Program-made: the position numbers and the translations under genes
The notes under the pieces: model-generated
Databases searched by the model: none
What the model was told of the DNA's origin: nothing
What the model saw: the letters and a program-made list of their open reading frames with translations, nothing else
Source: Pseudomonadota bacterium
GTDB taxonomy: Bacteria; Bdellovibrionota; FAC87; UBA2466
Direction of reading: 5' to 3'
DNA length: 11,358 nucleotides
Assembly (NCBI GenBank): GCA_043767805.1
Contig: JAYUGC010000121.1
Span: 1 to 11,358 of the forward strand
Part shown: positions 1,124-11,358 of the stretch, in pieces
How positions within the stretch are numbered: the first letter of the stretch is position 1
Layout: each line of letters opens with the position of its first letter

Positions 1124-1864
1124 TCAGACTTCTTTAACCGGGTGAGTCCGAGTATAGAATTGCGATCCATCGAACTCAAGGTACGTGAAGTGGCGCACCC
1201 AATCACCGGTATTGATGTACCGGCACTGCCTGCCATCAACCTCGACGCGATAATCGTCGGGAATGTGGGTGTGCCCCATGAGAACAATGTCATAACCCTT
1301 CTTGAAAAGGGTCTCCGCCGAGCGCCGGTACGTCTGACGGATGAGCTCTTCCTTCGTCGGAAAGTGGCCTTGGTACTTGCGGCTGAGCTTCGAGCTGTTC
1401 AAGCCCAGGTTGAAGATCCATTCCTGCGGAAAAAAGTTCTTCACCATGTGAACGGTCTCACGACGCAAAAGGTACCGAAGCGCCTTGTACCCATGATCTT
1501 TGGGGTTACCCAGATCGCCGTGCACCATGCACACGCGCTGTCCGTTCCATTCTTCGGTAATCGAATCGGGATAAACCTGGATGCCCAAGGCGTCTGAGAA
1601 ATAATCGCCCAGGTGAAAATCGTGATTCCCCTCGAGGTAATGAACGGAATGCCCGTCCTCGACGAGCCGCTTGAGAGTTTGGATGACCGGCTTATAGGTG
1701 CGCACGAGATGCGCGCTCGTTCCGGGCCAGACGTCGAAAAGGTCGCCCAGGATGTAAATGCGCTCGAAACGAGAGGCAACCTGTTGGAAGAATTTGATGA
1801 CCAGCTTGGTTTTCACGCTGCCGGCGTCCCGCAGGTGAACGTCTGAAAGGAAAATCGCAGTCAT
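1124..1864 (-). CDS. lpxH: UDP-2,3-diacylglucosamine diphosphatase (LpxH-family calcineurin-like metallophosphoesterase)
   Basis: Motifs SDVHL, LGDLFDVW, EGNHDF, HGD, MGHTH and NTGDW; 246 aa; close to a lipid A operon. Confidence 0.85.
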   Translation of the reverse strand: MTAIFLSDVHLRDAGSVKTKLVIKFFQQVASRFERIYILGDLFDVWPGTSAHLVRTYKPVIQTLKRLVEDGHSVHYLEGNHDFHLGDYFSDALGIQVYPDSITEEWNGQRVCMVHGDLGNPKDHGYKALRYLLRRETVHMVKNFFPQEWIFNLGLNSSKLSRKYQGHFPTKEELIRQTYRRSAETLFKKGYDIVLMGHTHIPDDYRVEVDGRQCRYINTGDWVRHFTYLEFDGSQFYTRTHPVKEV

Positions 1865-2454: not shown

Positions 2455-3477
2455 ATGGCCGCCCGACCAAAGAAAATACGACTTTTGTCCCCCGCCAAAC
2501 TGAACCTAGGCCTTTGGATCGTGGGCCGGCGGCGAGACGGGCTCCATAGACTGGAAAGCCTCTTTTGGCCGGTCGACCTGGTGGACGAGATTGAAGTCGA
2601 ACCGCAAGCCGATGAGCCGGGCGTTTTCATGGAATGGGCAGGGGACTCTCCCGTTCGCATGCCGCTTCCTCAGGAAACCGAAAATATCGTCGGTAAGATC
2701 CGTCAGGTGTTTCCCAAGGCCTTGGGCGACGATCTCGCCATCCGCATTCAAAAGCGGATTCCCCTCGGCGGAGGGCTCGGCGGAGGCTCGTCGAACGCGG
2801 GCGCACTCATCGCGCGGTTTGCTAAAAACGTCCCCGATATCGAGGAAAAAGCGGCCGAAGTAGGGGCCGACGTCCCCTTCTTTTTGAACCCGTTCCCGAC
2901 TTGGGTTACTGGCATCGGCGAGAAGCGCAAACAATTGAAGTTCTCGGTGGACTCTCTCAAGTCGGTTCACTTTCTCGTGGTTTGTTTGCCCGAGCCCACG
3001 CTCACCGCGCGGGTCTTTGGCGCGATGCGAGAATCTGATTTTACCTTTTCGCCTTCCCGCACTCCGTTTCCTACGAAATCGGTGCAACGCAAGGCACTCT
3101 TTAATTATTTGAAGTGGGCGCGCAACGATTTGGAAGCTTTTGCCGCGAAGGATTATCCGCTCATCGGCGAGGTGCTTTCGGCACTCCGCAAAACCCCGTG
3201 TCTTTTCGCGGGGATGTCGGGGAGCGGCTCGACGTGTTTTGCCATTTTTGAAGACGCCCTGGACCGTGAGAAAAGCGCTAAAGAACTCTCATCCTTCTTC
3301 CGAGAAAGAGGCTGTACGAGCCTTTTTGTGGAGACGTACAAAGCGCATCGAGACATTCACCGGTCAAGGAGCACAACATGGAAATCACCGAAGTCAAAGT
3401 CTTCCCCGTCAACGAAGATAAGCTTAAGGCGTACGTCACCATCATCTTCGACAACTGCTTCGTCGTCAGAGACTTAA
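2455..3477 (+). CDS. ispE: 4-diphosphocytidyl-2-C-methyl-D-erythritol kinase (GHMP kinase, MEP pathway)
   Basis: Motifs SPAKLNLGL, KRIPLGGGLGGGSSNA, GADVPFF, GIGE, NDLE and MSGSGSTCF. The C-terminal tail overlaps spoVG by 100 nt. Confidence 0.93.
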   Translation: MAARPKKIRLLSPAKLNLGLWIVGRRRDGLHRLESLFWPVDLVDEIEVEPQADEPGVFMEWAGDSPVRMPLPQETENIVGKIRQVFPKALGDDLAIRIQKRIPLGGGLGGGSSNAGALIARFAKNVPDIEEKAAEVGADVPFFLNPFPTWVTGIGEKRKQLKFSVDSLKSVHFLVVCLPEPTLTARVFGAMRESDFTFSPSRTPFPTKSVQRKALFNYLKWARNDLEAFAAKDYPLIGEVLSALRKTPCLFAGMSGSGSTCFAIFEDALDREKSAKELSSFFRERGCTSLFVETYKAHRDIHRSRSTTWKSPKSKSSPSTKISLRRTSPSSSTTASSSET

Positions 3478-3951: not shown

Positions 3952-5232
3952 ATGGTTCCCGGTAGCAGAGCCCTCTTTTTTTTAGTTTCTCTCTTCTTTT
4001 TAATCTTCGTTTATTGCACTCATTGCACTTTCGGCGAAGAACAGCACGACGCTTCCGGGCAATCGGGAGACGCGATCAATCGCCGCCTGGCCCCCGGAGC
4101 CGAGCTGACCGATCCAAAAATCGAGCTCCTTTCCAAAGTTTTCAGGCTGGAGCCGTCCTTTCTGAAGGACCGCTATTCTTACCGCTACAACTCGGCCGCC
4201 GCCGAAGCTAGCCGCGGGAATTTTAAGCCGCTCGCGGGGATCGTGGCAGAGCTCTTCGGAACGTTGAACAACAAGCAGCTCGATGAGCTTCTGGTTACGA
4301 CGAAAACCCGGAAGACAGAGGAGCTTTCGAAAACGCCGCCGGATCCCCGCTTCGTTTCCTTTCTCGATAAGTTCATCGCCGCGGGCGAGCGAATCCAAGA
4401 TCCCAAGTCGACCCCTCCCGATGAGGAGACCGGTAAGTTTCTCGAAGCCTTCGAGGGGGAGTTCACGAAGATCAAGGAATCGAACACCCGGTTTCACGAG
4501 AAAGTGCAGCAGGCTTTGGCGGGAAACCGCCAGGCGAAAGATTTCTTGCGCAGCAACTACGATCCAAAATCCCTTCTTTCCTTCATGGACGCGCAACGGG
4601 CGAGCGGAAATCAGGAGCTCGCGCGCAGTCTCGCTAAGTCTCTAGGTGAGTTCGACGATTCCGGAAACCACTCAATCGACTTCGTGGGGCCTCAGGGCAG
4701 CAAGGAAAGACTGAAGCTCGGATCTTCGGATGCGGACGTAGACAAAGCCTTGAACCGATTCAGTTCGGAAGAAGGCTTCGGCAGCCGGGCGTTCTCGCCG
4801 CTGCGGCACGCGCGGCCGGACAAAACGTTTGAGTTCCCCCCTGGGGGCGGCGACACAAAAATCACCGAGTTACCCGCAGGCGAGACCGCCATTCAACCCG
4901 GTCCCGTGGAAGCCGACAAAGGCGCGCGCTCGGCAGAACCTACCGTCCCAGCGGGTAAGCCCGCGAGCAAAGCTGCGGAAGATTTCTTGAAGGCGACTTG
5001 CGTACGCTGTCACGGTCCAGGCGGGCGAGCGACAGAAGATTTCGCGTTGAACGCAAACGGTACGTTAAATCTCGTGAAGAATAAGATGTCGCTCTCCGAC
5101 GCCATGACCCGGGTGCTCACTCGCACCTTGGTCGACAAGGATATGCCTCCGACCGGCGGACCGTTGAAGCCCGCCCAAGAGGGGATCCTGAAGGCGTGGG
5201 CCAAGGAACAAGACGTCACGCTGCCTAAGTAG
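3952..5232 (+). CDS. Exported protein with an unknown N-terminal region and a C-terminal monoheme cytochrome c domain
   Basis: Hydrophobic N-terminus (LFFLVSLFFLIFVY), a Pro/Ala-rich linker, CVRCH at residues 350-354 (4999-5013) and DMPP...L...ILKAW with Met398 as candidate distal ligand. Good SD. Confidence 0.8.
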   Translation: MVPGSRALFFLVSLFFLIFVYCTHCTFGEEQHDASGQSGDAINRRLAPGAELTDPKIELLSKVFRLEPSFLKDRYSYRYNSAAAEASRGNFKPLAGIVAELFGTLNNKQLDELLVTTKTRKTEELSKTPPDPRFVSFLDKFIAAGERIQDPKSTPPDEETGKFLEAFEGEFTKIKESNTRFHEKVQQALAGNRQAKDFLRSNYDPKSLLSFMDAQRASGNQELARSLAKSLGEFDDSGNHSIDFVGPQGSKERLKLGSSDADVDKALNRFSSEEGFGSRAFSPLRHARPDKTFEFPPGGGDTKITELPAGETAIQPGPVEADKGARSAEPTVPAGKPASKAAEDFLKATCVRCHGPGGRATEDFALNANGTLNLVKNKMSLSDAMTRVLTRTLVDKDMPPTGGPLKPAQEGILKAWAKEQDVTLPK

Positions 5233-5956
5233 TGCGGTGCAGCTGCTCGAGAGTCACGACGCCATGGATATGATCCATCATGAACATCACGACCTGCTTG
5301 ATATCCAAAGAGGTCGTATCGACGATGACGGCATCTTTCGCGCATTTGAGCGGCGCGATCCGCCGCGAGGAATCCCGCTCGTCCCGTTCTTCAATTTGCT
5401 GAGTCAGGTCTTTTAGGCTCGGCGCCTTTAACCCTTGGCTCTCTAATTGCTGCTTGCGTCTCATCGCGCGCGTCTTGGAATCGGCGGTGACGAAAAACTT
5501 GAAGCGCACGTCCGGAAACACCACCGTGCCGATATCTCGTCCCTCGACGACCACCGGGCACTTCTTGCTCCAAGTCTTCGCAATATCTCTTTGTTGCTTG
5601 GTAAGCAGTTTCCTGACGCCGGACTCTTTGCTGACCAGAGAAGCCATGTGGCTGACTCCCTGACTACGAAGTTCGTTGCCCGGATTATGGCCATCCACCA
5701 GGATTTTCTGGGAGTCCTTCTTGATCTCGAATTTCAATTCGCGCGAGATCTTCTCGAACTCCGCGGGCGTCTCCGCGCCAATGCGCATGGCATACCAGGC
5801 GACACTCCGGTACATAGCGCCGGTATCGAGCAGTACGCCGTCCAAGGCCTCCGCGAGCTTCTGGCTCACGGTGGATTTACCGGCGCCCGAAGGCCCGTCC
5901 ACGGCGACGATGAGCGCCGTGAGTTTCTTCTTACTAGCCGACTGTGCCTTTTTCAC
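5225..5956 (-). CDS. cmk: Cytidylate kinase
   Basis: P-loop DGPSGAGKST, LDTGAMYR, EGRDIGTVVFPD and RDERDSSRRIAPL. GTG start overlaps the upstream GT2 gene by 23 nt. Confidence 0.96.
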   Translation of the reverse strand: MKKAQSASKKKLTALIVAVDGPSGAGKSTVSQKLAEALDGVLLDTGAMYRSVAWYAMRIGAETPAEFEKISRELKFEIKKDSQKILVDGHNPGNELRSQGVSHMASLVSKESGVRKLLTKQQRDIAKTWSKKCPVVVEGRDIGTVVFPDVRFKFFVTADSKTRAMRRKQQLESQGLKAPSLKDLTQQIEERDERDSSRRIAPLKCAKDAVIVDTTSLDIKQVVMFMMDHIHGVVTLEQLHRTT

Positions 5957-6695
5957 CGGATTCCAGCTCCCATAATTTGGCCCACTTCAAAAAAACCGCG
6001 TAGGCCGCCGAGACAGAGATGATGAGGCCCGGGTACCCGTCGAGAAAACCGCGCTTTAGCAGGTAGGTCTCGAGAAACTTCGAGGTCGTCTTGACGCAGA
6101 GCCAGGCGAAAGAGAACGACACTCCTTTGGCCTTTAGCCCGCGAGCGCCCAAAGACGAATAGGTATTGTTGCGCGCGACCTGATCGGCAAGATTATCAAA
6201 AGAATAGTGGAGTAAGTCCGCGGTCAGCTCGCCCCGCTCTCCCTCGGTATGCCAGTACTCGTGCACTTCGTTCCCGCGCCACTCTCCCTGACTTTTGCGG
6301 AAGAGACGAAACAAACGATTGGGATACCAGCCGCCATGGCGGATCCACCTGCCGAAATGAATCGTTTTTCTGGGAAAACTGTAAGCGGCTTTTGCTTCGG
6401 GAAGGCGAATCGCCGCGAGAAGCTCGGCGCGAAGCTCGGCGGAGACCTCTTCATCGGCGTCAATGGACAAAATCCATTCGGACTCGGCAAAGCTCAGGGC
6501 TTTTTGCCGTTGGTCTACGAATCCGAGCCAGGGCAAGATATACACCTTCTTGGTGTAGCGTTGCGCGATGGCCACGGTGCCGTCGATGCTTTCGGCGTCC
6601 ACCACCACGATCTCGTCACAAAAAGAAAGACTCTGAAGACAGCGCTCCAGATTGCTTTCCTCGTTTTTGGTGATGATGACCGCGCCGATAGCCAT
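5934..6695 (-). CDS. Glycosyltransferase family 2, WaaE/KdtX-like LPS core beta-glucosyltransferase
   Basis: IITKNEE, DEIVVVD, SIDADE (DxD), HGGWYP..RLF, VHE, LLHYS and GFLDGYPG. Start overlaps the upstream stop (TAATG at 6693-6697). Confidence 0.88.
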   Translation of the reverse strand: MAIGAVIITKNEESNLERCLQSLSFCDEIVVVDAESIDGTVAIAQRYTKKVYILPWLGFVDQRQKALSFAESEWILSIDADEEVSAELRAELLAAIRLPEAKAAYSFPRKTIHFGRWIRHGGWYPNRLFRLFRKSQGEWRGNEVHEYWHTEGERGELTADLLHYSFDNLADQVARNNTYSSLGARGLKAKGVSFSFAWLCVKTTSKFLETYLLKRGFLDGYPGLIISVSAAYAVFLKWAKLWELESGEKGTVG

Positions 6696-8581
6696 TACTT
6701 CTCTTTGACCTCGATAAGATTGCCCCTAAGGGAGCCTATCTTTACCTTGGCGTCAAATTTCACCAGATACCGCTTCGAATCATCGCTCACCCAGAGATAG
6801 GACTCGCCCATCTGTTGGAGATTGTTATTCAGAGAAATCTGGATGCCTAGCTTCCAGCACTGAAAGACGCCGACCTTGGTGGTCACCAGCTCGTTAGCCA
6901 CGGGGGTGATGATGACCTCCATGTTCTTGCCCTTTTCATAGACGTAGAATCGTACCGGCTTATTCAGCTCGTACTCGAACATGCGAAGGGCATAGATGCC
7001 GCTGTACATGTCTCGCCCGCCCGGGACGAAAGCATCGGTTTGATCGAGCACCTCGTCTCCCCACTTGGTAGAGATTCGCTTCGACCAATAAAAGGCCTGG
7101 GATTTAAGATGATCGAAAGCGACTCGAGTTTCCTTTTTCTGGCTACTTTCGACCATGTGAAGCTGAAACTTATAGGGAACCGCGCCCTTCGCGTCGATGT
7201 AGGACTCGACCGTGTTATCCACGTGATAAATCGCGTCGACTAAACTGGACGAGAGCACATTGCCCCAAAGCTGAAGCGTTTCCCGCCCATTGATCGGGTC
7301 GGCCTTGCGCACTTCGAGAATCACCCGGCCCGCGGGAAGTGCCATCCAATGCAGCTCGAGCTCCATTTTTTCGCCGGCCTCAAAGGGGAGCTTCGGGTAC
7401 TCGGTCATGACGTAAGCCGGCGGCGGAGGCGGCGCGACTGGCGCCGCGACTACCGTCTTTCCTTTTTTCTTTTTGGATTTTTTCGTTTCCTTGGAAGGAG
7501 CTTTGGACGGCCCCGTGATTCCCATGGCTTCGGCGTGAGACACCGCCGCGGGCGAGTCGGTCGCCGGGCGCACGATAGGTACGGAAACTTTTGGCTCGGG
7601 CGGGAGCTCGATGCCAGTTTGAGCCGGACCGCCGCTCGCGCAACCCCAAAGCAGAAACGCCATCGCGGCTAGCCTAACGGGCGGCTTCCAGCGCGGCTCG
7701 CCTCGGTATTCTTTCCATCGACGGTGAAGCCAGAGCCACTGTTCGGGGTACCTTCTAATGATGCGTTCCATGGCGTCGTTCAATTGTTGCGTTCTTTGGT
7801 AAAGCCGCGTTTCTCGGGCTTCGCCGAGATTGGTAAATTGAAAGGGGGCCTCGATCTGAATGCGAGAGGTTCCTTTCGAGTCGCGATAAATATAGGTGAG
7901 AAGCACGGGAACGTCCCGGCGTTCCAGAAGTAAGGCCAGGGAAACCGCCGTACCCGCTTTGCGGCCGAAAAATGTCACCGGCAGCCCAATAGGCGGGCCC
8001 ATGAATTGATCCAGTAAGTAAGCGATCGCTTTTCCGCTACTGAGCGCTTTCAGGATGTCGTGATGCGTACCACTCTCGACTAAAAGCGAAGCGCCCATCT
8101 TGGCCCGGTACCAGTTCAAGAAGGCATCGCCCGCGGGACTTTTCGACCGCTTCACTACCGCTTGAAGGGGAAGGCCATGAGCGACCGCCGAGCCTAGAGC
8201 CAGCTCCCAGCTACCCAAATGAAACGTGAGAAAGAAAAAGCCGCGGCCTTGCTTTAAAAGAGTTTTCGCGTGCTCCATGCCGTCGATGGGAACGCGCGCC
8301 GCATAGTTCTTCGGAAGCCAGGTCAGCGACAAAAGAAAATCGATCACCATGCGCCCATAGTGCTGGTAGTTGGCCCGTGCCAAACGCTCGATCTCTTGCT
8401 CTCCGATCGCGGGCGCCAAGGCCAAGCGCATGTTCTCCAGAACGAACGCCTTACGGAATCCAATCACCTGATAGACCAAGGATCCGAAACCGGCGCCCAG
8501 CCAGGAGACGAAGGAATAGGGAAACAGGCGCAGCGTCCACGAGCAGAGGGAAAGTAAAAGGATGGTTAGGCGGAGTTTCAT
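6695..8581 (-). CDS. Fusion: LpxL/HtrB-type lipid A late acyltransferase + internal lipobox-like segment + DUF3108-like domain
   Basis: Residues ~1-290 carry TFHLGSWE (HxxxxE catalytic motif), LLDQ, VTFFG and PEQWLWLHRRWK. Then come RLAAMAFLLWG-C314 and a Pro/Lys-rich linker. From ~398, LPFEAGEKMELELHW..PAG and a beta-rich region ending WVSDD..RYLVKFDAKVKIGSL resemble DUF3108. ATGA overlap with the lpxK stop. Confidence 0.85.
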   Translation of the reverse strand: MKLRLTILLLSLCSWTLRLFPYSFVSWLGAGFGSLVYQVIGFRKAFVLENMRLALAPAIGEQEIERLARANYQHYGRMVIDFLLSLTWLPKNYAARVPIDGMEHAKTLLKQGRGFFFLTFHLGSWELALGSAVAHGLPLQAVVKRSKSPAGDAFLNWYRAKMGASLLVESGTHHDILKALSSGKAIAYLLDQFMGPPIGLPVTFFGRKAGTAVSLALLLERRDVPVLLTYIYRDSKGTSRIQIEAPFQFTNLGEARETRLYQRTQQLNDAMERIIRRYPEQWLWLHRRWKEYRGEPRWKPPVRLAAMAFLLWGCASGGPAQTGIELPPEPKVSVPIVRPATDSPAAVSHAEAMGITGPSKAPSKETKKSKKKKGKTVVAAPVAPPPPPAYVMTEYPKLPFEAGEKMELELHWMALPAGRVILEVRKADPINGRETLQLWGNVLSSSLVDAIYHVDNTVESYIDAKGAVPYKFQLHMVESSQKKETRVAFDHLKSQAFYWSKRISTKWGDEVLDQTDAFVPGGRDMYSGIYALRMFEYELNKPVRFYVYEKGKNMEVIITPVANELVTTKVGVFQCWKLGIQISLNNNLQQMGESYLWVSDDSKRYLVKFDAKVKIGSLRGNLIEVKEK

Positions 8582-9576
8582 GGCGCCCCCAGCTTACTTT
8601 CGATGAACGAAAAACAGGCCTCGGGAACCACGACTTCGAACCGAAGGAAGGCGACACGCCGTCTCCAGGCCTGCGGCAACTTCACCCAGTCTTTTTCAGT
8701 CGTAACGAGAGTAGCGGCGAGCGCGGTCGCGCGGCTTTCGAGTTTTTTTACCTCGAGCTCGCAGTAAACGTGGTGATCGCCAAAAGCCTCGAAGCCCACG
8801 AGCCGGCCGAGCGAGGCGACGTCTCGCCGGAAATTTTCGGGAACCGCGATACCGCAGAATGCATACAGCGGGATTTCGGCAAGCGAAGCGATCTTCCCAT
8901 CCAGCTGAAAGCCACCGCTTTCGCGCTCGCAGGTAAAGCACGGCTTGGAAGGAAAGCGCGTCGCAAGCCAAGCCTCCCAAGTCTCGTCTTTGCCGACCAT
9001 CAAAAACGCGGAAGCTCTCTCCAAGCCGGACAGCGGCTCGCGCAAGTCGCCAAGCGGAAGGCAGAAGGCGTCCTTCGGTCCCCGGTCCGCGGGAAGCAAG
9101 ACGAGATCGACGTCGCGGTGTAAGGCCCGGTGCTGAAACCCATCGTCCAAAAGAATGAGCCCCGGCAGCGAAACGCTGCTTTCCAGGCTTTTGGCCCCTC
9201 GGCAGCGATTCGCGTCGACTAAAACGGGAAACTGACCCCTTGACGCCATCATCCAGGGCTCGTCGCCATACTTGTCCGCTCCCTGGGCGTCTGTCTTATC
9301 GACTAAGGCGCCCGCGCGGCTCGCGCTTCCCCCGTATCCACGGGACAAAACGGCGGGCGATCTCCGGGAGAGACCTTTAGCCAAAGCTAGAACCACCGGA
9401 GTTTTTCCGGTGCCGCCCGAGTGCACGTTTCCGATGCTCACGACGGGAAGCTTCGAGTGGTGGCGGACTCGGGCGAAACGAAGCCTAAGGCGGGATACCT
9501 CTTCCCATAGCAGAGACAGCGGGAGGAAGGCCGCAAGACAACCAAGCCGGAGCTTTTCAAGCCGGGAGGGGCTCAA
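8578..9576 (-). CDS. lpxK: Tetraacyldisaccharide 4'-kinase
   Basis: PVVSIGNVHSGGTGKTP, LSRGYG, GDEP, LDDGFQH, LPLGDLREP, FGDHH and TTEKD. TTG start overlaps the end of lpxB by 20 nt. Confidence 0.95.
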   Translation of the reverse strand: MSPSRLEKLRLGCLAAFLPLSLLWEEVSRLRLRFARVRHHSKLPVVSIGNVHSGGTGKTPVVLALAKGLSRRSPAVLSRGYGGSASRAGALVDKTDAQGADKYGDEPWMMASRGQFPVLVDANRCRGAKSLESSVSLPGLILLDDGFQHRALHRDVDLVLLPADRGPKDAFCLPLGDLREPLSGLERASAFLMVGKDETWEAWLATRFPSKPCFTCERESGGFQLDGKIASLAEIPLYAFCGIAVPENFRRDVASLGRLVGFEAFGDHHVYCELEVKKLESRATALAATLVTTEKDWVKLPQAWRRRVAFLRFEVVVPEACFSFIESKLGAP

Positions 9577-10714
9577 GAACGCCTCCTCGAAGTAGCGGAC
9601 CCGAAGCCTGACTTATCTCCGCGGCAGCTCGGCGGCTCGCGCCGGGACCGCCGAGCAAAAGCCGGCAAGCGGTCAAATCTTCCAGACACTGCGCTCGTGC
9701 CGCCGCCGACTCGATAAAGCGAGCACATTCCTCGAAGAGAGCATCCGCGGAGGCGTTCTGCTGAAAAAATTCTTTCACCGCTTCTTTTTTTAGAAGCACG
9801 TTAGGCATTCCGATGAACCCGCGGTAGCGCACGAGGAAACGAAACGCGAACGCGCTGAACTTGCTCATCCGGTAAAAGAGAGCAAACGGCACTCCCACGA
9901 GCGCCGCCTCCAGAGTCGCGGTACCCGAGGCGATTAGCGCGCAGTCCGCCCACTCGTAAACCGAGCGAGCGCCTCCCGCTACGAATTGCACCATGGGGTT
10001 TTTGATGTGAGCTCTCACTTGCCCTTCCTTAATCGTGGAAGCGAGAGGCACTCGAAACTCGGCCTGAGGGTAACGGGCCCTTAAGCGCGCGACGACCTCG
10101 TCCAAGAGGGCCCCATGATGGGCAAGCTCGCTCAAACGACTTCCGGGCAGAAGCCCAATACGGGGCCTGGTCTTAACTTCACTTTGAATTCGATAGTCAG
10201 TGCGCGGCTCGATGGATTCCAGAAGCGGATGCCCGACGAAAGTCACCTCCACCTTATGGTTCCGGTAAAAGGCTTCCTCGAAGGGAAAGACCACGAGCAT
10301 TTTGTCGACGTAACGCCGGATCTTGCGGATACGGTATCGGCGCCAGGCCCAAACCTGAGGGGAGATATAATAGTAAACCGGTATCCCCGCTGCCTTGAGC
10401 TGACTCGCGAGCTTTAAATTGAAATCGGGAAGATCGAGCAAGATGGCGAAGTCCGGACGGCGAGAGTCGATGAGACCAGCCACCTTGCGAAAGCAGGCTA
10501 AAATATCTTTCAGCCGATCCAGCCAATCCGTGAGGCCCACGACGTTCAAAGCTTCACTGGGCACGACGATGTCCACGCCGCGAGCCGCGAGCTCCGTGCC
10601 GCCGACTCCGTACAGCTCGATGTCTGGCGAAATTTCCTTCAGGCAATCGACCAGGCGGGCCGCATGGGAATCAGCGGAGGCTTCTCCCGCCACTATGAGA
10701 ACCTTCGGAGCCAT
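9557..10714 (-). CDS. lpxB: Lipid-A-disaccharide synthase
   Basis: IVAGEASAD, DLPDFN, YYISPQVWAWR, FVGHPL, LLPGSR, ASGTATLE and IGMPN. Start corrected to ATG 10714 (MAPKVLIVAGE), 4 nt after the upstream stop and with AAGGGG upstream; 385 aa. Confidence 0.96.
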   Translation of the reverse strand: MAPKVLIVAGEASADSHAARLVDCLKEISPDIELYGVGGTELAARGVDIVVPSEALNVVGLTDWLDRLKDILACFRKVAGLIDSRRPDFAILLDLPDFNLKLASQLKAAGIPVYYYISPQVWAWRRYRIRKIRRYVDKMLVVFPFEEAFYRNHKVEVTFVGHPLLESIEPRTDYRIQSEVKTRPRIGLLPGSRLSELAHHGALLDEVVARLRARYPQAEFRVPLASTIKEGQVRAHIKNPMVQFVAGGARSVYEWADCALIASGTATLEAALVGVPFALFYRMSKFSAFAFRFLVRYRGFIGMPNVLLKKEAVKEFFQQNASADALFEECARFIESAAARAQCLEDLTACRLLLGGPGASRRAAAEISQASGPLLRGGVLEPLPA

Positions 10715-10718
10715 CGCT

Positions 10719-11358
10719 TTAAGGCCCCTTCGAAAGCTCGGCTTCCATCCGCGCCGGCCTAGAGCCAGGGCGCTCGAGAATTTTTTGAATGATGATTTTG
10801 GCGTAGCGCAAGGCGCGGATGCCATCCTCGCCACTGACCACCGGGCGCCTCTTTAGCCGGACGCATTCCACGAAATCGGCGGTCTGCTCTCCCAGCGGAT
10901 CGAGAGAGATACTGTCTTGATGCACGAGCTGAATCGATTTGTCGGCGGCGCGAGTATAGACCTTCACGGTATTTTCCCTGAAATCCAGGGAAGCGTAGGC
11001 GCTATCGAAGAATACCCGGAATTTTCGAACCGGATCGAGGGAGACGCGGCTAACGCTCAAATTGACGGCGGCTCCGGTGAGAAACTCGAGACGCACGCTC
11101 GCCATGTCCACTTGATCGGTGAGGACGCTGACTCCGATAGCTGAAACATGAACGGGATCTTCTCCCATCAAAGCCAAAACGAGATCCAGATCGTGGATCA
11201 TCAAATCGGTGACCACATCGGCCTTCGCGTCCCGCGCGAGGCTTGGGCTCAGGCGCTGCGCTTCGATGAAACGGACGGCGCCTTTAGCGGCATCGCCGGC
11301 CAGAGCGCGGTACCGAAACCTCTCGATCAAACCAACCTGCAGAACGAGATCCCTCTCC
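10719..11358 (-). CDS. Gfo/Idh/MocA-family oxidoreductase, GnnA-like (UDP-GlcNAc 3-dehydrogenase), 5' end beyond the window
   Basis: The frame is open to the right edge (ERDLVLQVGLIERF...). DVVTDLMIHDLD, SVSRVS..VRKFRVF and FVECVR..PVVSGEDG are present. It lies immediately upstream of lpxB. Confidence 0.8.
   Translation of the reverse strand, partial: ERDLVLQVGLIERFRYRALAGDAAKGAVRFIEAQRLSPSLARDAKADVVTDLMIHDLDLVLALMGEDPVHVSAIGVSVLTDQVDMASVRLEFLTGAAVNLSVSRVSLDPVRKFRVFFDSAYASLDFRENTVKVYTRAADKSIQLVHQDSISLDPLGEQTADFVECVRLKRRPVVSGEDGIRALRYAKIIIQKILERPGSRPARMEAELSKGP

What the first reader, a model, noticed from the sequence alone, without database searches (positions are those of the whole stretch)
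6695..8581. Lipid A late acyltransferase fused through an internal lipoprotein signal to a DUF3108-like domain
Seen: one uninterrupted 628-codon frame. The acyltransferase ends at its usual C-terminal motif (WLWLHRRWK) and is followed directly by a basic-hydrophobic-lipobox segment, WKPPVRLAAMAFLLWG-C314-ASGG (Cys codon at 7640-7642). The only nearby in-frame ATG is 7 residues before the Cys, too close to make a separate signal peptide. Established: LpxL/HtrB enzymes are ~300-aa inner-membrane proteins that act on the cytoplasmic side, and lipoboxes are normally N-terminal and processed by Lgt/LspA. Inference: either (a) a trans-inner-membrane protein couples cytoplasmic lipid A acylation to a periplasmic beta-rich domain that may handle lipid, or (b) a polyprotein is cut by signal peptidase II into enzyme plus lipoprotein at 1:1 stoichiometry. 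Either way the fusion links an uncharacterised domain family to lipid A/LPS biogenesis.
Basis: partly seen in the sequence, partly recalled or inferred. Interest (0 to 1): 0.82.

Follow-up and report, generated by a model that had tools for sequence, protein, structure and literature searches.

The report
Lipid A acyltransferase fused to lipoprotein
In one lineage of Bdellovibrio-like bacteria, the enzyme that finishes the lipid anchor of the outer-membrane lipopolysaccharide has fused with the exported lipoprotein encoded next to it, and the lipoprotein's export-and-lipidation signal survives in the middle of the protein, which ties an uncharacterised protein family to outer-membrane lipid assembly.

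Summary
A 628-codon frame on the minus strand (6695-8581) joins an LpxL-type acyltransferase (Pfam, residues 12-290) to a DUF3108 domain (409-621). Between them lies a basic, hydrophobic, lipobox-like segment ending at Cys314 (7640-7642).

It is not an assembly artefact. 105 of 109 database relatives carry both domains. 25 of 29 genomes of the same order have one open frame. Contigs from four sequencing runs show no indel.

The organism belongs to the Bdellovibrionota. Elsewhere in the phylum, DUF3108 is a separate lipoprotein gene inside the lipid A operon. lpxK lies upstream in 65 of 67 loci with enough sequence, and lpxL sits between them in 29 of 80 loci. The fusion arose once.

The internal Cys is kept in 97 of 103 fused proteins. 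Its lipobox quality (77/103) matches that of the free-standing relatives (42/55). The hydrophobic stretch has signal-peptide length.

I therefore favour processing by Lgt and LspA into enzyme plus lipoprotein (about 0.5) over an uncut two-sided membrane protein (about 0.3). No computation here can decide between them.

The DUF3108 part folds as a LolA/EipB-like beta-spiral and probably binds lipid. This is a new variant of known kinds. I found no paper describing it.

The parts
6695..8581 (-). Fused ORF of 628 codons plus stop: LpxL-type acyltransferase, internal lipoprotein signal, DUF3108
   Evidence: The start ATG overlaps the lpxK stop (ATGA). The stop TAA overlaps the ATG of the next gene (TAATG).
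8531..8578 (-). N-terminal hydrophobic helix (residues 2-17), the presumed membrane anchor of the acyltransferase
   Evidence: AlphaFold2 full-length model, helix 2-17, pLDDT 95-98. The anchor role is inferred from what is known of LpxL/LpxM (recalled).
7712..8548 (-). Lip_A_acyltrans domain (residues 12-290), the only one in the genome
   Evidence: Pfam. The own-genome search found a single match.
8204..8221 (-). H121-x4-E126, the putative catalytic dyad of the acyltransferase
   Evidence: H121 and E126 are invariant in the 84-sequence alignment. That HX4D/E is the catalytic motif is recalled knowledge.
7688..7738 (-). Conserved C-terminal tail of the enzyme: WLWLHRRWK (282-290) and RGEPRW (293-298)
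   Evidence: W282, W284, H286, R288, K290, G294 and W298 are invariant.
7640..7687 (-). Internal signal-peptide-like segment: basic n-region K299-R303, hydrophobic L304-G313, lipobox L-W-G-C with Cys314 (7640-7642)
   Evidence: AlphaFold2 gives only an 11-residue helix, 304-314.
7577..7618 (-). TGIELPPEPKVSVP motif (322-335), specific to the fused clade, 7-9 residues after the Cys in most
   Evidence: Found in 103 of 103 fused proteins. T322, G323 and I324 are at least 90% conserved; P327 and P335 are invariant.
7388..7576 (-). Low-complexity Lys/Pro-rich linker (336-398)
   Evidence: pLDDT 46-74. Free-standing relatives have linkers of similar composition.
6719..7357 (-). DUF3108 domain (409-621), an all-beta spiral or barrel, the only one in the genome
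   Evidence: Pfam. Single match in the own genome. Model pLDDT 90.7. Fold matches.
8578..9576 (-). lpxK (tetraacyldisaccharide 4'-kinase), translationally coupled upstream
   Evidence: Pfam LpxK, E 1.4e-76.
9557..10834 (-). lpxB (lipid A disaccharide synthase)
   Evidence: Pfam LpxB, E 1.3e-81.
5934..6695 (-). Family 2 glycosyltransferase, coupled downstream; possibly an LPS core transferase (inference)
   Evidence: Pfam Glycos_transf_2, E 6.6e-18.

Best explanation
This is a genuine, clade-wide fusion of two neighbouring genes of the lipid A operon of Bdellovibrionota: lpxL, the genome's only late (secondary) acyltransferase, and the DUF3108 lipoprotein gene that follows it elsewhere in the phylum. 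The lipoprotein's signal peptide was retained and now lies internally.

Proposed mechanism. The N-terminal helix anchors the enzyme with its catalytic domain on the cytoplasmic face (inferred). The basic tail (HRRWK...RGEPRWK) stays inside. The short hydrophobic segment 304-313 inserts like a signal peptide, and the C-terminal 315 residues are exported through Sec (inferred). Lgt then puts diacylglycerol on Cys314 and LspA cuts between G313 and C314 (inferred, not shown). This would release a mature DUF3108 lipoprotein and leave LpxL with an extra C-terminal membrane segment. The two products would be made in a 1:1 ratio.

The DUF3108 part is a LolA/EipB-like beta-spiral that probably holds acyl chains. 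Given its phylum-wide place in the lpxB-lpxK(-lpxL) operon, its ligand is most likely lipid A/LPS or a precursor on the periplasmic side (inferred).

The confidence of 0.5 is for the whole chain including the cut. That the fusion is real, that DUF3108 is exported, and that it is linked to the lipid A operon each stand at 0.9 or more.
For: The fusion is real and old. 105 of 109 hits carry both domains. 25 of 29 genomes of the order have one open frame. All 25 fused rows fall in one clade with 100% SH-aLRT support on a long stem (1.16), and the sister groups have separate adjacent genes.

The ancestral state is a lipoprotein. All 12 free-standing DUF3108 frames printed (10 from other families, 2 split forms within the fused family) show a hydrophobic stretch ending in Cys ahead of the domain. 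Of 80 loci, 24 are fused and 29 have lpxL directly upstream. lpxK lies upstream on the same strand in 65 of 67 loci with at least 2600 nt of upstream sequence. Five of six loci without lpxL read GFO/IDH-lpxB-lpxK-DUF3108-glycosyltransferase.

The lipobox is under selection. The Cys is present in 97 of 103 fused proteins: 96 by my filter plus P0024 read by eye. Position -3 is Leu in 64 of 96. Position -1 is G, S or A in 89 of 96. Position +2 is A, S or T in 89 of 96. A PROSITE-like lipobox core pattern (recalled) matches 77 of 103 fused junctions against 42 of 55 free-standing signal peptides, with only 1 hit elsewhere in the fused proteins. The rest of the hydrophobic stretch is not conserved in sequence.

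The segment has signal-peptide dimensions. The uncharged stretch before the Cys has a median of 15 residues (range 12-19) in fused forms and 13 (range 10-20) in free-standing forms. AlphaFold2 gives only an 11-residue helix.

There is no conserved internal start. 5 of 25 junctions, the window's among them, have no in-frame ATG, GTG or TTG 12-40 codons before the Cys, and 1 of 25 has a Shine-Dalgarno-like site.

The machinery is present: 3 LspA and 2 Lgt genes in this genome.

The covalent link is dispensable. In G015 the LpxL part was deleted in place, leaving lpxB-lpxK-remnant-DUF3108 with a normal N-terminal lipoprotein signal.

The Cys is not explained by a disulfide. C314 and C575 are lost independently: 6 sequences lack only C314, 8 lack only C575, and none lacks both, out of 84.

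Fold. The model has pLDDT 90.7. VIA-align matches: 6ntr EipB/DUF1849 Z 14.7, PA1994 Z 11.3, VioE 9.4, 4fvs 9.1, YmcC 8.3, LolA proteins about 8. Foldseek matches: 3fzx (a DUF3108 member) E 5.9e-5, plus LprG, LppX and RseB.
Against: No lipidation or cleavage was observed. Everything about processing is inferred from sequence conservation.

A lipobox more than 300 residues from the N-terminus fails the positional rule for bacterial lipoproteins. I found no paper on cleavage at an internal lipobox.

The window's own lipobox (L-W-G-C) has Trp at -2 and fails the recalled PROSITE core pattern. Five relatives have Arg at -1.

Six of 103 fused proteins lack the Cys but keep the hydrophobic segment. 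So an uncut anchor, or a signal-peptidase-I product, is viable in some lineages.

Fused hydrophobic stretches are slightly longer than free-standing ones.

The LPS link rests on gene order only. The Pfam DUF3108 model also hits Thermus and Deinococcus, which make no LPS (recalled), so the family as a whole cannot be LPS-specific.

This genome has LptC, LptE and LolA, so no known LPS-transport slot is vacant.
Confidence: 0.5

Rival explanations
1. Uncut two-sided membrane protein. The hydrophobic segment acts as a second transmembrane anchor. LpxL stays covalently tied to a periplasmic DUF3108 domain held at the outer face of the inner membrane, perhaps where flipped lipid A emerges.
For: The single frame is kept in 25 of 29 genomes of the order. 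Six of 103 relatives have no Cys but keep the hydrophobic segment, which is longer in several of them. A clade-specific motif, TGIxLPPDP, begins 7-9 residues after the Cys in most sequences and is modelled with high confidence, so the barrel would sit close to the membrane that holds the anchor. The DUF3108 domain changed considerably after the fusion (stem 1.16).
Against: A plain anchor does not explain a Cys kept in 97 of 103 sequences with G/S/A at -1, Leu at -3 and A/S/T at +2, at the same rate as true lipoprotein signals. The uncharged stretch (median 15) and the 11-residue modelled helix are short for a membrane-spanning helix. In G015 the two functions are separated again.
Confidence: 0.3
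2. The DUF3108 half is made separately by internal translation initiation, so the long frame is only a by-product of overlapping genes.
For: M271 lies 43 codons before the Cys. 20 of 25 junctions have some in-frame ATG, GTG or TTG 12-40 codons before the Cys.
Against: The window has no ATG, GTG, TTG or CTG in codons 272-306. Candidate starts are not at a conserved position. Many are the Leu codons of the WLWLH motif, and only 1 of 25 has a Shine-Dalgarno-like site. 5 of 25 have no candidate at all.
Confidence: 0.04
3. Assembly or sequencing artefact: a lost stop or frameshift joins two genes in this metagenome-assembled genome only.
For: The genome is a 204-contig assembly. One relative (G006) shows a frameshift at exactly this junction.
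Against: About 100 independent fused homologues exist. The fused state defines a clade. Contigs of 4 runs, including a 95-99% strain variant, show no indel or stop at the junction. The G006 split leaves no usable start codon for the second half, so it looks like the error or pseudogene.
Confidence: 0.01
4. This rival concerns function only and is compatible with either processing model. DUF3108 has no specific role with lipid A. It is a general envelope-integrity or lipoprotein-handling factor (EipB-like, or a LolB-like receptor) that merely travels with envelope genes.
For: The closest solved bacterial fold is EipB, a periplasmic envelope-integrity protein with no shown LPS role (abstract of 10.1101/551135 read). 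LolA, LolB, LprG and LppX match at Z 7-8. No LolB was found by Pfam in this 100%-complete genome, although LolA is present. DUF3108 also occurs in Thermus and Deinococcus.
Against: lpxK lies upstream in 65 of 67 loci across the phylum, even where lpxL is absent. That is tighter than generic envelope clustering. Earlier unchecked notes of this scan place DUF3108 next to other lipid A or LPS genes in three other phyla.
Confidence: 0.25

Closest known systems
LpxL/LpxM (HtrB/MsbB) late lipid A acyltransferases, Pfam PF03279
   Same: There is a full-length domain match (profile positions 21-294 of 295). The H-x4-E dyad is invariant. There is an N-terminal hydrophobic helix. The gene follows lpxB-lpxK. 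It is the only copy in the genome.
   Different: About 340 extra C-terminal residues cross the membrane. Scores stay far below every NCBIfam equivalog cut-off (best 116.5 bits against 297.8). So which acyl chain and which position it serves cannot be named.
DUF3108 (PF11306), solved as BF2203 of Bacteroides fragilis (PDB 3FZX, 'YmcC-like fold'); also 4FVS
   Same: The Pfam match is above the cut-off. Foldseek matches 3fzx (E 5.9e-5) and 4fvs (E 3e-5). It is an exported protein.
   Different: Here it is fused behind an enzyme, with a clade-specific TGIxLPPDP motif and a Lys-rich linker. One paper (PMC4364669, passage read) calls DUF3108 proteins outer-membrane beta-barrels. The lipoprotein signal and the similarity to soluble LolA/EipB-type proteins argue for a lipid-anchored soluble barrel instead (inference).
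EipB (DUF1849) of Brucella abortus, PDB 6NTR, and PA1994 (DUF1089), PDB 2H1T
   Same: These are the best bacterial structural matches: Z 14.7 over 211 residues (rmsd 3.6) and Z 11.3 over 161 residues. EipB is a periplasmic 14-strand beta-spiral resembling LolA/LolB and is needed for envelope integrity (abstract of 10.1101/551135).
   Different: Identity is 10% or less, and the window protein has no Pfam DUF1849 match. EipB is a soluble periplasmic protein, not a lipoprotein, and is not reported in a lipid A operon.
LolA/LolB, LprG/LppX and RseB (lipid- or acyl-chain-binding half-barrels)
   Same: The general fold is shared (Z 7-8; Foldseek E 0.004-0.03). LolB, LprG and LppX are themselves lipoproteins. 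RseB senses LPS (recalled).
   Different: The matches are in the range the tool describes as common. There is no sequence-family membership. The genome has its own LolA.
Bacterial precursors cut at an internal signal peptide, such as the cytochrome b/c1 precursor FbcH of Bradyrhizobium (recalled; my search did not retrieve the paper)
   Same: A membrane protein is followed in the same frame by an exported protein whose signal peptide is retained internally.
   Different: That case uses signal peptidase I. An internal Lgt/LspA (lipobox) site in a natural protein was in no paper that my searches found.

Membership tests
LpxL/LpxM late acyltransferase (Pfam Lip_A_acyltrans, PF03279) | Profile match over the curated cut-off, covering the whole domain | tested here: met
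   146.4 bits against a cut-off of 22.3; profile positions 21-294 of 295
LpxL/LpxM late acyltransferase (Pfam Lip_A_acyltrans, PF03279) | Catalytic H-x4-D/E dyad (motif recalled) | tested here: met
   H121 and E126 are invariant in 84 sequences
LpxL/LpxM late acyltransferase (Pfam Lip_A_acyltrans, PF03279) | Equivalog-level identity as LpxL, LpxM or LpxP (NCBIfam cut-offs) | tested here: not met
   Best hit TIGR02207, 116.5 bits against a cut-off of 297.8. All 17 models are below their cut-offs. The superfamily is certain; the exact enzyme is unassigned.
LpxL/LpxM late acyltransferase (Pfam Lip_A_acyltrans, PF03279) | Acyl-ACP-dependent acylation of Kdo2-lipid IVA | not testable with these tools
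   Needs an enzyme assay
DUF3108 (PF11306) | Profile match over the curated cut-off | tested here: met
   94.9 bits against a cut-off of 26; profile positions 3-207 of 209
DUF3108 (PF11306) | YmcC-like beta-spiral fold, as in 3FZX | tested here: met
   Model pLDDT 90.7. Foldseek: 3fzx E 5.9e-5, 4fvs E 3e-5, 2in5 E 0.012.
Bacterial lipoprotein (substrate of Lgt and LspA) | Lipobox [LVI]-[ASTVI]-[GAS]-C after an uncharged stretch and a basic n-region (consensus recalled) | tested here: inconclusive
   In the window, K299 and R303 are followed by LAAMAFLLWG-C. Positions -3 (L) and -1 (G) fit; -2 (W) does not. The recalled PROSITE core pattern fails for the window but holds in 77 of 103 relatives.
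Bacterial lipoprotein (substrate of Lgt and LspA) | Signal peptide at the N-terminus of the precursor (Cys within roughly the first 40 residues) | tested here: not met
   The Cys is residue 314, and no usable internal start exists. So this is not a canonical prolipoprotein. It may still be processed like one.
Bacterial lipoprotein (substrate of Lgt and LspA) | Lgt and LspA encoded in the genome | tested here: met
   2 Lgt and 3 LspA matches over the cut-off
Bacterial lipoprotein (substrate of Lgt and LspA) | Diacylglycerol modification and globomycin-sensitive cleavage | not testable with these tools
   Needs labelling, western blot or mass spectrometry
EipB / DUF1849 | Sequence-family membership | tested here: not met
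   No DUF1849 hit in Pfam at E 0.01 or better. There is fold similarity only: Z 14.7 at 10% identity.
LolA / LolB | Sequence-family membership | tested here: not met
   No LolA or LolB Pfam hit on this protein. The genome's LolA is elsewhere. Fold similarity is Z 7-8.

The most novel reading that the evidence does not exclude
This would be a natural bacterial polyprotein processed at an internal lipobox. Lgt and LspA would act more than 300 residues into a membrane enzyme and release an equimolar lipoprotein. That lipoprotein (DUF3108) would be a so far unrecognised periplasmic lipid A/LPS-handling factor, and a core member of the lipid A operon throughout the Bdellovibrionota. It might serve the maturation of their phosphate-free, mannosylated lipid A, or the handling of prey lipid A.
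Probability: 0.3. Interest if true: 0.8.

Novelty: new variant of a known kind. Interest (0 to 1): 0.62.

Why it matters
DUF3108 is a widespread envelope protein family with two crystal structures and no known function. A phylum-wide, near-invariant place in the lpxB-lpxK(-lpxL) operon, plus a fusion to the acyltransferase itself, gives it a concrete, testable link to lipid A biogenesis.

The Bdellovibrionota make an unusual lipid A in which mannose replaces the phosphates. Early work also reported that Bdellovibrio incorporates prey lipid A (passages of PMC13689555 read). That makes the link more interesting in this group.

Separately, a lipobox conserved more than 300 residues inside a protein is a clean natural test of whether Lgt and LspA need their substrate's signal peptide to be N-terminal. 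If they do not, lipoprotein predictors that scan only N-termini will miss lipoproteins of this kind.

Tried and rejected
1. Assembly error. Rejected by the homologues, the tree and the contigs.

2. Internal start codon. No conserved start and no Shine-Dalgarno site.

3. Cys314 kept for a disulfide with the other conserved Cys (C575). Rejected, because the two are lost independently.

4. DUF3108 as a stand-in for a missing LptE or LptC. Rejected, because both are present in the genome.

5. DUF3108 as a LolB substitute. Not excluded: LolB was not found by Pfam and LolA is present. Nothing positive supports it either.

6. Sequence search of the C-terminal half against solved structures. Nothing significant; the best hit had E 1.5.

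7. Literature. 'DUF3108' occurs in 5 papers. I read passages in 2 and saw 3 only in the search listing. 'Internal lipobox' occurs in 0 papers. A search on internal signal peptide, signal peptidase II and polyprotein returned nothing relevant. A search on LpxL, lipoprotein, gene fusion and Bdellovibrio returned nothing relevant. A search for the FbcH precedent did not retrieve it.

8. RNA evidence. No RNA holder was listed. All four runs were contigs from one study, so they say nothing about expression.

9. The split in G006 as evidence for two genes. It is a frameshift, and the second half has no usable start.

10. The first MAFFT run timed out. I repeated it with faster settings.

11. I had no SignalP, LipoP or TMHMM tool. 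I replaced them with counts of my own and a recalled PROSITE-type pattern.

So I could not inspect a hydrophobic cavity or confirm what the TGI motif touches.

13. The top VIA-align hit, 9fqr chain Xh (bovine sperm axoneme, Z 16.8), could not be interpreted.


Full report
OBSERVATION

The window holds an uninterrupted 628-codon frame at 6695-8581. Its translation contains the motif WLWLHRRWK at residues 282-290. It also contains the segment WKPPVRLAAMAFLLWG-C-ASGG, with Cys314 encoded at 7640-7642.

Pfam places a full-length Lip_A_acyltrans domain at residues 12-290 (E 1.4e-42) and a full-length DUF3108 domain at 409-621 (E 7.9e-27). Both are far above their curated cut-offs.

In-frame start codons near the Cys are M307 and a CTG at 310. 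The next ones upstream are M271 and a TTG at 267, with nothing between codons 272 and 306.

CONTEXT

All neighbours on the minus strand belong to one tightly packed unit:
- a GFO/IDH/MocA oxidoreductase (10719-11357)
- lpxB (9557-10834)
- lpxK (8578-9576)
- the fusion (6695-8581)
- a family 2 glycosyltransferase (5934-6695)
- cmk (5225-5956)

The lpxK stop overlaps the fusion's start as ATGA. The fusion's stop overlaps the glycosyltransferase's start as TAATG.

The fusion carries the only Lip_A_acyltrans domain and the only DUF3108 domain of a genome rated 100% complete. It must therefore supply the cell's late acyltransferase. H121 and E126 are invariant among 84 aligned relatives. This is the H-x4-D/E dyad of this enzyme class, a motif I recall rather than tested.

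NCBIfam scores stay far below all equivalog cut-offs. The enzyme can be placed in the LpxL/LpxM superfamily but not named more exactly.

NOT AN ARTEFACT

A search of 5.8 billion clustered proteins returned 109 hits. Of these, 105 carry both Pfam domains, mostly at 580-670 residues and 40-70% identity.

Among 41 related genomes, 25 of the 29 in the same order have one open frame without stops spanning both halves. The four exceptions are:
- G008, where the gene is cut by contig ends
- G028, where a short N-terminal piece sits in another frame
- G006, which has a frameshift
- G015, described below

Logan contigs of four runs from one study cover the junction without any inserted or deleted letter. 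Two of those runs may be the source of this DNA. Run X3 is identical over 7073-7832. Run X4 holds a strain variant of 95-99% identity over 7523-7781, with 11 substitutions and no gaps. Translated, those substitutions change only PPVR to PAAQ ahead of the hydrophobic stretch.

ORIGIN OF THE FUSION

Record titles place the relatives in the Bdellovibrionota. The fused forms come from MAGs labelled Pseudobdellovibrionaceae or Bdellovibrionales.

In other families of the phylum the two halves are separate, adjacent genes. All 12 free-standing DUF3108 frames that I printed show a hydrophobic stretch ending in Cys, with a typical lipobox, ahead of the domain. Examples are LMFSC, LSGC, LTAC and LASC.

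Of 80 loci found with a DUF3108 profile, 24 are fused. Another 29 have lpxL directly upstream on the same strand. The remaining 27 have no lpxL beside them, and 5 of those have too little upstream sequence to judge.

The loci without lpxL are still in the lipid A operon. Five of the six examined read GFO/IDH/MocA (or lpxA)-lpxB-lpxK-DUF3108-glycosyltransferase. Overall, lpxK lies upstream on the same strand in 65 of the 67 loci that have at least 2600 nt of upstream sequence.

A maximum-likelihood tree of the DUF3108 domain has 81 rows. It puts all 25 fused rows in one clade with 100% SH-aLRT support on a long stem (1.16 changes per column). Three other rows fall in the same clade: L027 (no upstream sequence), L047 (the G006 frameshift) and L038 (G015). 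The sister groups have adjacent separate genes. The fusion therefore arose once, by loss of the lpxL stop, and has been kept.

THE TWO SPLIT RELATIVES

In G006 the frames differ by one base just after RWK. The second half has no usable start codon: only TTG or GTG codons 2-8 residues before the Cys. This looks like an error or a pseudogene.

In G015 the locus still reads lpxB-lpxK. Only a remnant of about 40 residues of LpxL precedes a DUF3108 protein, which now starts with its own Met and a normal lipoprotein signal. A more distant LpxL paralogue lies on another contig. So the covalent link can be lost without losing the lipoprotein.

THE JUNCTION

Of 103 fused proteins with the HRRWK motif, 97 have the Cys: 96 by my filter plus P0024 (FSHC) read by eye. 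Six lack it: P0012, P0014, P0045, P0056, P0082 and P0089.

Around the Cys, position -3 is Leu in 64 of 96. Position -1 is Gly, Ser or Ala in 89 of 96. Position +2 is Ala, Ser or Thr in 89 of 96. The rest of the hydrophobic stretch varies freely.

I wrote a PROSITE-style lipobox core pattern from memory. It matches 77 of 103 fused junctions and 42 of 55 free-standing signal peptides, essentially the same rate. It matches once elsewhere in the fused proteins. The window's own LWGC fails this pattern because of Trp at -2. One free-standing relative has the same WGC.

The uncharged stretch before the Cys has a median of 15 residues (range 12-19) in fused forms and 13 (range 10-20) in free-standing ones. 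AlphaFold2 models only an 11-residue helix there, residues 304-314, at pLDDT 52-63.

Candidate internal starts are not conserved. Five of 25 distinct junctions have none, and only 1 of 25 has a Shine-Dalgarno-like site.

I also considered that the Cys is kept for a disulfide with the other conserved Cys, C575. The two are lost independently: 6 sequences lack only C314, 8 lack only C575, and none of 84 lacks both.

The genome encodes 2 Lgt and 3 LspA proteins.

A second feature is specific to the fused clade. The motif TGIxLPPDP..P begins 7-9 residues after the Cys in most sequences and is present in 103 of 103. P327 and P335 are invariant. It is modelled at pLDDT 95-97. That suggests it packs against the barrel and would hold the barrel close to the anchoring membrane, but I could not inspect coordinates to confirm the contact. 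A disordered Lys/Pro-rich loop follows. Free-standing relatives have linkers of similar composition.

THE DUF3108 HALF

The model of residues 314-628 has mean pLDDT 90.7 and pTM 0.85.

Foldseek against the PDB finds:
- 6ntr (DUF1849)
- 4fvs and 3fzx; 3fzx is the solved DUF3108 member, described as a 'YmcC-like fold'
- VioE
- more weakly, LolA3, LprG, LppX, RseB and YmcC

VIA-align against 48,161 chains gives:
- 9fqr chain Xh, Z 16.8 (a bovine sperm axoneme protein that I cannot interpret)
- 6ntr, Z 14.7 over 211 residues
- PA1994, Z 11.3
- VioE, Z 9.4
- 4fvs, Z 9.1
- YmcC, Z 8.3
- several LolA and LolB proteins, Z 7-8

6ntr is EipB of Brucella. It is a periplasmic 14-strand beta-spiral that resembles LolA/LolB and is needed for envelope integrity (abstract of 10.1101/551135 read).

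One paper calls DUF3108 proteins outer-membrane beta-barrels (PMC4364669, passage read). The lipoprotein signal, the lack of a C-terminal aromatic residue (the protein ends ...EVKEK), and the kinship with soluble lipid carriers make a lipid-anchored soluble barrel more likely. This is inference.

MECHANISM

Shown:
- The fusion is real and has a single origin.
- The lipobox and the signal-like dimensions are retained.
- The processing enzymes are present.
- DUF3108 belongs to the operon across the phylum.
- The fold is LolA/EipB-like.

Inferred:
- The enzyme's C-terminus is cytoplasmic.
- The segment 304-313 inserts in the signal-peptide orientation.
- The C-terminal 315 residues are exported.
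- Lgt lipidates Cys314 and LspA cuts before it.
- The result is LpxL with an extra C-terminal membrane segment, plus a mature lipoprotein in a 1:1 ratio.

I put this at about 0.5. The uncut two-sided protein stands at about 0.3. The six Cys-less relatives show that an uncut or differently cut form is viable. They also suggest that outer-membrane anchoring is not essential for function.

The residues after the Cys (Ala/Ser, then Ser) carry no Asp at +2. That would mean outer-membrane sorting by the E. coli rule (recalled), but the rule for this phylum is unknown.

For function, I commit to a periplasmic binder of lipid A or LPS acyl chains, on the strength of gene order. Three caveats apply. 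The Pfam family also occurs in Thermus and Deinococcus, which lack LPS (recalled). The closest characterised fold relative, EipB, has only a general envelope phenotype. This genome already has LptC, LptE and LolA.

EARLIER NOTES OF THIS SCAN

These are unchecked AI notes. They report DUF3108 in several other settings:
- next to rfaE-kdsB in Kiritimatiellia
- next to an LpxJ-type lipid A acyltransferase in Woeseiaceae
- next to lipid A phosphatases and an ArnT-like transferase in SAR11
- fused to a TonB-like anchor in Betaproteobacteria

They also report other fusions that keep an internal signal peptide: a CotH fusion and an FTR1-barrel fusion. I did not test these. If they hold, the lipid A link is wider than one phylum, and internal signal peptides left by neighbour fusion are a recurrent pattern.

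COMPARISON AND NOVELTY

Both halves belong to known families, and databases already list the two-domain architecture under automatic names. I found no paper describing any of the following:
- the fusion itself
- the operon membership of DUF3108
- cleavage at an internal lipobox

I rate this a new variant of known kinds, with moderate to high interest. It offers a testable function for a structurally solved but functionless family, and a natural test of whether Lgt and LspA need an N-terminal substrate.

Noticed in passing
own genome, contig C186: 39744-40175 (-), 40250-40675 (-), 46496-46918 (+), 47066-47476 (+); also C60:3975-4703 and C76:8012-8725: The genome has three LspA (signal peptidase II) genes, two of them in tandem. 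The third lies directly before the LolA gene. There are also two Lgt genes. This is an unusual multiplicity of lipoprotein-processing enzymes.
   Followed up: no
window 10719-11357 (-); also L087, L095, L099: A GFO/IDH/MocA oxidoreductase precedes lpxB here and in distant Bdellovibrionota. It may be a GnnA-like enzyme for a diamino-sugar lipid A backbone. That idea is recalled, not tested.
   Followed up: no
window 1124-1864 (-) and 2455-3477 (+): A calcineurin-like phosphoesterase resembles LpxH (126.8 bits against a cut-off of 134). An ispE-like GHMP kinase lies in the same window (171 bits, below its cut-off of 204). So a further lipid A gene candidate sits 5 kb from the operon.
   Followed up: no
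window 3952-5232 (+): A 426-aa ORF has no NCBIfam match and only a weak C-terminal cytochrome c hit (E 3e-4, below cut-off).
   Followed up: no
L014 / L038 (G015:C176) and L025 (G015:C18): This looks like a secondary undoing of the fusion. The LpxL part was deleted in place, leaving a remnant of about 40 residues. The DUF3108 part gained its own Met start and a normal lipoprotein signal. A more distant LpxL paralogue (37% identity to the query) lies on another contig.
   Followed up: partly
L013 / L047 (G006:C56): There is a one-base frameshift exactly at the junction, just after RWK. No usable start codon exists for the second half. This is probably an assembly error or a pseudogene.
   Followed up: yes
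proteins P0108 and P0109: Other fusions of the same acyltransferase domain exist: one with a 4'-phosphopantetheinyl transferase domain (PF01648), and one with LpxK (PF02606).
   Followed up: no
model m3d19d3ecc5e6, residues 36-311: The best structural match of the DUF3108 domain is chain Xh of the bovine sperm axonemal doublet microtubule structure 9fqr (Z 16.8, 223 residues, 8% identity). I have no explanation for it.
   Followed up: no
window 7670-7685: In the strain variant of run X4, six of the 11 substitutions over 7523-7781 cluster in 16 bases. Those bases encode the boundary between the basic and hydrophobic parts of the internal signal. The Cys codon and lipobox are unchanged.
   Followed up: partly
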